A stretch of DNA of 64,000 bases from positions 9,816 through 73,815 of the forward strand of contig CAZCQW010000004.1 in the NCBI GenBank assembly GCA_964500975.1, in the 5' to 3' direction. Below, in pieces: positions 2,942 to 4,189 of the stretch. The notes beneath the pieces were generated by a model. The model worked only from the letters and a program-made list of their open reading frames with translations, was not told where the DNA came from and searched no databases. Source of the DNA: an uncultured Gammaproteobacteria bacterium. Its GTDB lineage: Bacteria > Patescibacteriota > Patescibacteriia > Patescibacteriales > UBA12465. The position numbers and the translations under genes were made by a program. The first letter of the stretch is position 1. Every line of letters begins with the position of its first letter.

Positions 2942-4189
2942 ATGCTAGAAAACTTTCGCCAATTACTTAAGCTAGTTTTTATATCACTTTTGGGCAATAA
3001 AACCAGAAGTTTTTTGACGATGTTAGGGATTATAATTGGCGTTGGAGCAGTTGTTTTAATTATGTCGCTTGGCGCTGGTGCAAAGTCTTTGATCCTTGGT
3101 CAGTTATCCGGTGTGGGCGGAGATTTAATTGGCATTCTGCCGGGCCAATCAGATTCTAAAGGGCCGCCTGCCTCAGTATTCGGGGTTAAAGTTACTAGTT
3201 TAAAAATTGGCGATGCCGAAGCTTTTAAAGACCCTCAAAATGTAGCTCATATTACCTCGGTCGTTTCATATTATCAGACCAGCGCCACTACTTACTGGCG
3301 CGATCAAAGCTACGACGCGACTCTTCAAGGTGTGGTTGGTGATTATTCAGAACTTGAAGGTGGCGAAGTGTCTCTTGGTCGCTTTTTTACAAATGATGAA
3401 CTAAACTCTAGTTTAAATTTTGCTATCTTAGGGAGCACAGTGGCTAAAGAATTATTTGGTGATAATAATCCAGTTAATCAAAAAATTAAAATTAAAAATA
3501 AAACTGCAACTGTTATTGGTGTAATGAAAGAAAGGGGCCAGGTTGGTTTTCAAAGTTATGATAATTTAATAATTACACCTCTTCTTTTTGCCCAAAAAGA
3601 AATTGCGGGTGTTAATTATTTGAGCTCAGTTAGAATAAAAGTTGATAATTCTGAAAATATTGATGAGGCAATGGAAAATATTCGCCAAACTTTAAGAGAG
3701 CGTCACGATATTGATAATCCAACTGATGATGATTTTTCTGTTCGTAGTTTTAGGGACGCACTTGATTTAGTAAATACAATTACCGACTCAATTCGTTATT
3801 TTTTGGCTGCATTGGCTAGCTTATCTCTTCTGGTTGGGTGAATTGGAATTATGAATATTATGTTAGTTAGCGTTACTGAAAGAACGAGAGAAATTGGTTT
3901 AAGAAAATCGTTAGGTGCGACAAATCGCCAGGTTTTAAATCAGTTTCTATTTGAAGCGATTGTTCTTACATTGTTTGGTGGCTTAATTGGTCTACTAGCA
4001 GGAAGTTTACTTTCGTATTTAACAGCCATTATTGTTAGATCACTTGATTATCAGTGGGATTTTATTATTTCTTTATCATCGATTATTGTCGCTGTTAGTT
4101 TGTCGACTTTAATCGGAGTTGTTTTTGGTTATTATCCCGCTAAGCGAGCGAGCTGTTTAAGCCCAATTGAGGCTTTGCGTTATGAATAA
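2942..4189 (+). pseudogene. FtsX/MacB-type ABC permease interrupted by a single in-frame TGA at 3839..3841. It could alternatively be read through or recoded.
   Basis: ORFs 2942..3841 and 3851..4189 are in the same frame. The sequence [11 protein letters not shown]...[15 protein letters not shown] aligns with LLVGGVGIMNIM...ERTPEIGLRKALGAT in the intact paralog at 4193..5419. The TGA replaces the conserved Gly of the FtsX GG motif. Confidence 0.55.

What the first reader, a model, noticed from the sequence alone, without database searches (positions are those of the whole stretch)
2942..4189. In-frame TGA exactly at the universally conserved Gly of the FtsX motif, while no gene in the window terminates with TGA
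The first MacB/FtsX permease reads LLVG-TGA-IGIMNIM, whereas the tandem paralog reads LLVGGVGIMNIM. The TGA therefore occupies the second Gly of the conserved GG motif. Reading frame and sequence are otherwise intact on both sides.

Independently, I checked the stop codon of every annotated CDS in this window, about 60 genes. They use TAA about 48 times, TAG about 12 times and TGA never.

Two explanations are possible. One is a simple GGA-to-TGA nonsense mutation or sequencing error, making the gene a pseudogene. The other is a lineage in which TGA is not an efficient terminator, through loss of RF2 or an unassigned or recoded TGA, and is occasionally decoded as Gly. Gracilibacteria and Absconditabacteria use TGA for Gly under code 25.

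Full code-25 usage is excluded, because ORFs of 1100-1300 aa contain no internal TGA. A TGA-avoiding intermediate state, however, would look exactly like this.
Basis: partly seen in the sequence, partly recalled or inferred. Interest (0 to 1): 0.6.

Follow-up and report, generated by a model that had tools for sequence, protein, structure and literature searches.

The report
Premature stop in a transporter gene
One of two tandem MacB-type ABC-transporter permease genes in this small-genome (Patescibacteria) bacterium carries a single-base GGA-to-TGA stop at an invariant glycine; this is most likely an ordinary recent knockout, not a sign of an altered genetic code.

Summary
TGA at 3839-3841 lies in frame in a MacB/FtsX-type permease gene (2942-4189), at a glycine that is invariant in 120/120 homologues. 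None of about 52 genes in the window ends in TGA.

The recoding reading does not hold up.
- The TGA is unique to this genome. The closest relative (93% aa, same gene order) has GGA, and about 130 equivalent motif sites in fetched loci all read GGN.
- No other in-frame TGA occurs in 18,577 codons of the window, or in relatives.
- The lineage (Falkowbacteria-like Patescibacteria) rarely uses TGA stops: 12 of 203 genes. A model fitted to that spread gives an 18% chance of 0 of 52.
- Relatives do terminate at TGA, including one with DnaE 82% identical, so RF2 is presumably retained.
- The acetate kinase gene 5 kb downstream is a clear pseudogene, so gene decay occurs in this genome.
- Substitution patterns show no relaxed selection in the permease gene, so the stop is recent.

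Most likely this is a recent nonsense allele, less likely a consensus error. It truncates the permease before its FtsX domain. RF2 and tRNA(UCA) could not be checked in the source genome. A small chance of an RF2-less, TGA-unassigned state remains.

The parts
272..2209 (+). HlyD/YknX-like periplasmic adaptor (membrane-fusion protein), first gene of the transporter operon
   Evidence: Pfam HlyD_3 and HlyD_D23. Orthologues in the relatives hit YknX_C and Beta-barrel_AprE, and the gene order is conserved.
2217..2939 (+). ABC ATPase subunit (240 aa, ends TAA)
   Evidence: Translation shows Walker [10 protein letters not shown] and the signature LSGGEKQR. Orthologues are 240 aa with PF00005.
2942..3838 (+). 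Permease 1, N-terminal 299 codons: TM1, the MacB periplasmic domain, and most of TM2
   Evidence: The database product P0045 (299 aa, 100% identical, from an 85,950-nt NCBI contig) carries only PF12704 MacB_PCD and lacks PF02687 FtsX.
3839..3841 (+). In-frame TGA replacing an invariant Gly codon (GGA in the closest relative)
3842..4189 (+). Permease 1, remaining 115 codons in the same frame (end of TM2, coupling loop, TM3-TM4), ending at TAA. An internal ATG at 3851 opens a 112-aa ORF.
   Evidence: Compared with L001 there are 35 synonymous and 5 non-synonymous codon differences, so the sequence is still gene-like.
4193..5419 (+). Permease 2, the intact tandem paralogue (408 aa, ends TAG)
   Evidence: Orthologues carry PF12704 and PF02687 and are present in every relative.

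Best explanation
The genetic code here is standard. The locus is a four-gene MacB-type (type VII) ABC efflux operon: an HlyD-like adaptor, an ABC ATPase and two tandem permeases that probably pair as a heterodimer. In this genome, permease 1 has taken a single G-to-T substitution that turns the invariant TM2 glycine codon GGA into the stop TGA.

Translation then ends after residue 299. The product keeps TM1, the periplasmic domain and most of TM2. It lacks the coupling loop, TM3 and TM4, that is, the FtsX domain. The permease, and probably the pump, is therefore disabled or badly impaired.

The change is recent. The lack of TGA-terminated genes in the window reflects a lineage-wide preference for TAA and TAG, not loss of TGA as a stop.

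Shown: the substitution, its uniqueness to this genome, the invariance of the glycine, the rarity of TGA stops in the lineage, and TGA termination in relatives. Inferred: that the stop is read as a stop in this cell, that the pump is inactive, and that the base is real rather than a consensus error.
For: - The closest relative, L001 (93% aa, 86% nt, same gene order), has GGA where the window has TGA.
- All the best homologues listed are full length (383-433 aa; mostly 415 or 389). The only truncated one is the window's own 299-aa product.
- Gly is present in 120/120 homologues. About 130 equivalent motif sites in all fetched loci read GGN, and only the window reads TGA.
- No other in-frame TGA occurs in 18,577 codons of the window. 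No TGA-split genes occur in related loci.
- Relatives use TGA as a true terminator. L082 does so in 5 of 20 genes, with stops following in frame. L107 does so with an ATGA stop/start overlap. L111/L112 PrmC ends in TGA at its natural C-terminus, with no further stop for more than 20 codons. L108 (DnaE 88% identical to the window) ends one gene in TGA.
- The lineage census without the window is 12 TGA of 203 stops. A beta-binomial fit gives a predictive P(0 of 52) of 0.18.
- Gene decay is present nearby. The acetate kinase gene has lost about 130 internal codons, and its two remaining parts are in different frames. It is intact (394-396 aa) in relatives.
- GGA-to-TGA accounts for 289 of 2,098 single-base routes to TGA in this genome's codon pool, so landing on a Gly codon is not a rare coincidence.
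Against: - Within the window's immediate subclade as defined on the transporter genes (window, L001, L087, L086, L103), TGA stops are 0 of about 94. That is lower than in the rest of the lineage (Fisher p = 0.006).
- TAG outnumbers TGA 13 to 0 in the window, which base composition alone does not explain.
- The one TGA stop in L108, the closest relative sampled beyond the window, is followed by TAA two codons later, so it does not prove termination at TGA.
- The gene shows no relaxed selection on the window branch: 10 non-synonymous and 57 synonymous changes, against 8 and 43 in L001. That fits either a very recent knockout or a gene that is still functional.
- RF2 and tRNA genes of the source genome could not be examined.
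Confidence: 0.75

Rival explanations
1. Consensus or base-call error, or a minority strain variant captured by the assembler. In the real population the codon is GGA and the gene is intact.
For: It is a single-base difference from the orthologous GGA. The gene otherwise looks fully constrained. From general knowledge, G-to-T is the typical oxidative-damage artefact. No independent assembly of the same population exists in the protein collection to cross-check: only P0045, from NCBI, matches at 100%.
Against: The rest of the window looks well assembled, with uninterrupted ORFs of 1,130-1,308 aa and no scattered frameshifts. A random error that creates a stop in 64 kb is a priori much rarer than a true pseudogene. 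A second disrupted gene (ack) lies nearby.
Confidence: 0.1
2. TGA is not an efficient terminator in this organism, because RF2 is lost or TGA is unassigned. The codon is read through, either by a new tRNA-Gly(UCA) as in code 25 or by a near-cognate tRNA. Permease 1 is then made full length, as an early 'codon capture' stage.
For: TGA stops are 0 of 52 in the window and 0 of about 94 in the immediate subclade, while TAG is used freely. The TGA sits exactly at a Gly codon. The gene shows no decay. The only release factor seen near the region in relatives is RF1, with a PET motif. Code 25 arose in other Patescibacteria (PMC8629427).
Against: The TGA is not shared by any relative. It is the only in-frame TGA in 18,577 codons. 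Relatives at 76-82% aa identity terminate at TGA, and so may L108 at 87-89% identity. Zero TGA stops in 52 genes has an 18% chance under the lineage's own TGA usage. No tRNA(UCA) was found in the window or in 18 related loci. The ack pseudogene shows that real gene decay happens here.
Confidence: 0.08
3. Functional split gene. Ribosomes terminate at the TGA and reinitiate 9 nt downstream at ATG 3851. The 299-aa N-fragment and the 112-aa C-fragment then reassemble in the membrane.
For: ATG 3851 is in frame and has the same AATTATG context as the coupled start codons of permease 1 and permease 2. Stops and starts in this operon lie 2-7 nt apart.
Against: The split falls inside TM2 and removes the invariant G-I-G-I residues. 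No relative has such a split. There is no positive evidence for reinitiation.
Confidence: 0.05
4. The TGA encodes selenocysteine.
For: The only support is that an in-frame UGA is present.
Against: The 67 nt from the TGA onward do not fold into a hairpin: MFE -2.9 kcal/mol, z = +1.4. Homologues have Gly, not Cys, at this site.
Confidence: 0.01

Closest known systems
MacB-type (type VII) ABC transporters: MacAB-TolC of E. coli and Aggregatibacter (PDB 5LIL, 5NIK, 5GKO) and the split ATPase/permease form Spr0694-0695 of S. pneumoniae (5XU1); YknXYZ-like operons
   Same: Permease 1 aligns over its full length with MacB (E = 2e-58), including the TM2 motif [20 protein letters not shown]. It has the MacB_PCD and FtsX domains. 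A separate ABC ATPase and an HlyD/YknX-like adaptor lie in the same operon.
   Different: There are two tandem paralogous permease genes instead of one, and the ATPase is a separate polypeptide, as in 5XU1 and unlike E. coli MacB. In this genome permease 1 is cut by a stop codon before the FtsX domain.
Genetic code 25 (UGA = Gly) of Gracilibacteria and Absconditabacteria
   Same: The organism is from the same superphylum (Patescibacteria/CPR) and has low GC. An in-frame TGA sits at a conserved Gly, and no TGA stops occur in the window.
   Different: Code-25 genomes carry in-frame UGA in many genes, have a tRNA-Gly(UCA) and lack RF2 (PMC8629427). Here there is one TGA in 18,577 codons, it is not shared with relatives, no such tRNA was seen, and relatives terminate at TGA.
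Ordinary nonsense pseudogenes in reduced genomes
   Same: A single-base change from a sense codon, an intact orthologue in the nearest relative, loss of an essential domain, and another decayed gene nearby.
   Different: There is no accumulation of further damage yet, so the event is very recent or the base is wrong.
Rare or unassigned codon stages proposed by the codon-capture model (for example CGG in Mycoplasma capricolum and in relatives of Peptacetobacter; PMC8629427)
   Same: TGA use is strongly depleted in an AT-rich lineage.
   Different: The codon is still used as a terminator in relatives, so it is rare but assigned.

Membership tests
Genetic code 25 (UGA = Gly) | In-frame UGA in many genes, aligned with conserved Gly | tested here: not met
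   There is one in-frame TGA in 18,577 codons of 46 genes, and none in about 200 genes of related loci.
Genetic code 25 (UGA = Gly) | UGA never used as a terminator | tested here: inconclusive
   TGA stops are 0 of 52 in the window. The lineage uses TGA for 12 of 203 stops, and the predictive P(0 of 52) is 0.18. Relatives terminate at TGA.
Genetic code 25 (UGA = Gly) | tRNA-Gly with anticodon UCA | tested here: inconclusive
   The only tRNA in the window is tRNA-Leu(CAA), and there is none in 18 related loci. The rest of the genome was not available.
Genetic code 25 (UGA = Gly) | Absence of RF2 (prfB) | not testable with these tools
   No RF gene lies in the window. Relatives carry RF1 (PET motif) just beyond the window's right end. 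The source genome could not be fetched.
MacB-type ABC transporter permease | N-terminal TM helix, a periplasmic MacB_PCD domain, then a C-terminal FtsX domain (TM2-TM4) | tested here: met
   With the TGA read as Gly, the protein aligns with MacB structures over residues 10-414. Homologues carry PF12704 and PF02687. As encoded, the ORF stops before PF02687 (P0045).
MacB-type ABC transporter permease | Operon partners: an ABC ATPase and a membrane-fusion adaptor | tested here: met
   The four-gene order is conserved in all relatives.
Nonsense pseudogene | Premature stop relative to intact orthologues, one base away from their sense codon | tested here: met
   TGA in the window against GGA in L001. 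The other listed homologues are full length.
Nonsense pseudogene | Relaxed selection or further lesions in the gene | tested here: not met
   The window branch has 10 non-synonymous and 57 synonymous changes, against 8 and 43 on the L001 branch. This is compatible only with a very recent event.
Nonsense pseudogene | The base is supported by sequencing reads | not testable with these tools
   No reads are available, and there is no second assembly of this population in the collections.
Selenoprotein | SECIS hairpin directly downstream of the UGA, and Cys in homologues | tested here: not met
   There is no stable structure, and homologues have Gly.

The most novel reading that the evidence does not exclude
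The window's organism, perhaps with its nearest relatives (the clade showing 0 of about 94 TGA stops), has lost or crippled RF2. UGA would then be effectively unassigned, and the FtsX-motif TGA would be translated. That would be an early, independent step toward UGA = Gly in a second Patescibacteria lineage (Falkowbacteria-like), outside Gracilibacteria and Absconditabacteria.
Probability: 0.07. Interest if true: 0.75.

Novelty: already known. Interest (0 to 1): 0.15.

Why it matters
As it stands, it matters little. It is a premature stop in one transporter gene of an uncultured bacterium, plus a note that this lineage rarely uses TGA stops (about 6%) and prefers TAG. That is useful as a caution: a window of about 50 genes without TGA stops is not evidence of a code change in low-GC Patescibacteria.

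If the minority reading were true, it would give a rare snapshot of the intermediate stage of stop-codon reassignment. It would also be a second, independent origin of UGA-to-Gly in the candidate phyla radiation. That is why a whole-genome check for prfB and tRNA(UCA) is still worth the few minutes it would take.

Tried and rejected
- **Fetching the source contig.** Exact-protein look-ups with window proteins and with P0045 all returned 'not on record'. The remaining 22 kb of the 85,950-nt contig and the rest of the genome stayed out of reach.
- **Genome-collection scan with permease 1.** It was swamped by the universal GIGIMNIM pattern and returned only hits of 51% identity or less. These served as a background set for stop-codon usage, not as relatives.
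No way was found to direct a database search at this lineage's RF2.
- **tRNA scan of 18 related loci.** It found nothing.
- **Selenocysteine.** Rejected.
- **Code 4 (TGA = Trp).** Rejected: there are 170 TGG codons and no TGA at Trp positions.
- **The region 29425-29835 as a tmRNA.** A tmRNA would be relevant to ribosome stalling, but neither ARAGORN nor Rfam supports that reading.
- **An apparent TGA-terminated ORF in L103/L104.** It is spurious and overlaps a called 73-aa membrane-protein gene that ends in TAA.
- **Literature searches.** Searches for RF2 loss or stop-codon anomalies in Patescibacteria outside the code-25 clades found nothing relevant.

Full report
**What is in the sequence**

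Window 2942-4189 is a single reading frame of 415 codons, interrupted once by TGA at 3839-3841. The translation reads ...[34 protein letters not shown].... The gene that follows (4193-5419) is an intact paralogue reading ...LLVGGVGIMNIM....

The two genes are preceded by an ABC ATPase (2217-2939) and an HlyD-like adaptor (272-2209). With the TGA read as Gly, the protein aligns end to end with solved MacB permease domains (5LIL, E = 2e-58; also 5NIK, 5GKO and 5XU1). These carry the same TM2 motif, [12 protein letters not shown]. The locus is therefore a MacB-type (type VII ABC) efflux operon with two tandem permease genes. This arrangement is conserved in every relative examined.

**Checking the two observations**

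The glycine is invariant in 120 of 120 aligned homologues.

My census of the window gives 46 genes of at least 100 aa and 6 credible small genes. They end in TAA 39 times, TAG 13 times and TGA never. No other real coding frame contains a TGA, in 18,577 codons that include 1,176 Gly codons and 170 TGG.

**Who this is, and what relatives show at the site**

Homologues are annotated as Patescibacteria group or Candidatus Falkowbacteria. The window's own truncated product is in the protein collection as P0045: 299 aa, from an 85,950-nt NCBI contig, with only the MacB_PCD domain. All other top hits, at 58-93% identity, are full length.

The closest relative is L001 (Logan SRR27069942), at 93% aa and 86% nt identity with the same gene order. 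It has GGA where the window has TGA, so the two differ by one G-to-T change. Across all fetched loci, about 130 occurrences of this motif use GGN, and only the window has TGA. The TGA is thus private to this genome and derived.

Polarising the differences between the window and L001 with four outgroups gives similar ratios on the two branches. The window branch has 10 non-synonymous changes (plus the stop) and 57 synonymous ones. The L001 branch has 8 and 43. There is no sign of relaxed selection, so the change is recent. One later change, R405C, hits a residue that is Arg in all four outgroups. On its own that means little.

**Is TGA avoidance special to this organism?**

Unrelated low-GC loci end 45 of 250 genes in TGA, so 0 of 52 is unusual against bacteria at large (p = 1.6e-4).

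I then collected neighbourhoods from 14 related genomes. In that set TGA ends 12 of 203 genes, or 5.9%, and the counts are uneven:

| Locus | TGA stops / genes |
|---|---|
| L082 | 5/20 |
| L091 | 2/19 |
| L094 | 1/10 |
| L095 | 1/10 |
| L107 | 1/16 |
| L108 | 1/18 |
| L111 | 1/18 |
| L001, L084, L086, L087, L092, L096, L103 | 0 each |

A beta-binomial model fitted to them predicts 0 of 52 with probability 0.18.

In a tree of the transporter proteins, the window groups with L001, L087, L086 and L103. That group has 0 of about 94 TGA stops, lower than the rest of the lineage (p = 0.006). Two caveats apply. These loci are largely the same orthologous genes, so they are not independent samples. 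L108 and L111 come from a different genomic region, so they could not be placed in that tree.

**Is TGA still a stop codon in the lineage?**

Yes, in relatives.
- L082's five TGA-terminated genes are followed by further stops in frame.
- L107 ends its DNA-alkylation-repair gene in TGA, overlapping the next start as ATGA.
- L111 and L112 (DnaE 82% identical to the window) end PrmC in TGA at the same C-terminal position as the L108 orthologue. No other stop follows for more than 20 codons.
- L108 (DnaE 88%, RodA 87% and L25 89% identical) ends a DUF192 gene in TGA at the natural C-terminus. A TAA follows two codons later, so that case is not decisive.

Termination at TGA requires RF2, so RF2 is presumably retained in the lineage. 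I could not look for prfB directly. The only release factor seen is RF1 (motif PET, GGQ), in the rpmE-prfA-prmC cluster. In relatives that cluster sits just past the window's right end.

**Other evidence bearing on the choice**

- Gene decay is real in this genome. Five kilobases downstream, acetate kinase survives as codons 1-29 (9173-9259) and codons 161-394 (9252-9953) in different frames, with about 130 codons deleted. It is intact in L086 and L103.
- Hitting a Gly codon is not remarkable. GGA supplies 289 of 2,098 one-step routes to TGA in this codon pool.
- No hairpin follows the TGA, so selenocysteine is out.
- ATG 3851, 9 nt after the TGA, has the same AATTATG context as the coupled starts in this operon. 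Termination followed by reinitiation, giving a split protein, is conceivable. However, it would cut TM2 and drop invariant residues.

**Conclusion**

The best-supported account is an ordinary, recent GGA-to-TGA nonsense allele under the standard code. It truncates permease 1 before its FtsX domain and probably disables the pump (confidence about 0.75). A consensus error or minority variant is next (about 0.1).

The recoding or RF2-loss reading keeps about 0.07-0.08. Three things keep it alive: the immediate clade shows no TGA stops at all, TAG is favoured 13 to 0, and RF2 and the tRNAs of the source genome could not be inspected.

A whole-genome prfB and tRNA scan, a stop-codon census and a read pile-up at 3839 would settle it. 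As found, this is a known kind of event in a known kind of gene.

Noticed in passing
window 9173-9956: The acetate kinase gene is a pseudogene. Codons 1-29 (9173-9259) and codons 161-394 (9252-9953) lie in different frames, and about 130 codons are deleted. Relatives L086 and L103 have intact genes of 394-396 aa.
   Followed up: yes
window 29425-29835 (+): A GC-richer intergenic stretch of about 410 nt lies between a 263-aa gene and a 1,130-aa gene. It folds much better than shuffles (-131.9 kcal/mol, z = -4.5) and contains a direct repeat, CCGAGTCGGACTT, twice. It has no Rfam family at E <= 1 and no ARAGORN tmRNA call. It may be an undescribed structured RNA.
   Followed up: partly
window 5575-9098: The class I ribonucleotide reductase genes (large subunit 5575-7986, small subunit 8013-9098) sit between permease 2 and ack in the window and in L001. 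In L086 and L103, ack directly follows permease 2, and in L086 the RNR genes lie upstream of the operon. This looks like a local rearrangement shared by the two closest genomes.
   Followed up: partly
related loci L001, L082-L113 (whole lineage): This Falkowbacteria-like lineage uses TGA for only about 6% of stops and TAG for about 20%. That reverses the usual bacterial TGA > TAG order. Unrelated low-GC loci gave 18% TGA and 16% TAG.
   Followed up: partly
L108 11777-14142; L111 11789-14518: In relatives, the window's last gene (ribosomal protein L25) is followed on the opposite strand by prmC, prfA and rpmE. The prfA product is RF1, with a PET tripeptide and the GGQ motif. The same cluster probably lies just outside the window in the source contig.
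   Followed up: partly
L108 17497-17979: The only TGA-terminated gene in L108 (DUF192) has a TAA two codons downstream (GAT TGA GCT AAA TAA). This is a tandem back-up stop.
   Followed up: no
window 26802-27637: A small two-gene cassette (74 aa at 26802-27026 and 81 aa at 27035-27280) looks by arrangement and sequence like an antitoxin/toxin pair. A 90-aa gene lies on the opposite strand (27365-27637). None has a Pfam hit at E <= 1e-4.
   Followed up: no
window 44683-45062 (+) and 52560-52644 (-): Bacterial RNase P RNA class A (195 bits) and tRNA-Leu(CAA). Both confirm a cellular rather than phage origin.
   Followed up: yes
window 29923-33315 and 40676-44602: Two very large ORFs (1,130 and 1,308 aa). 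The first has no Pfam domain. The second has LamG-like and lamin-tail domains. They are probably surface proteins, next to O-antigen-ligase-like and glycosyltransferase genes.
   Followed up: no
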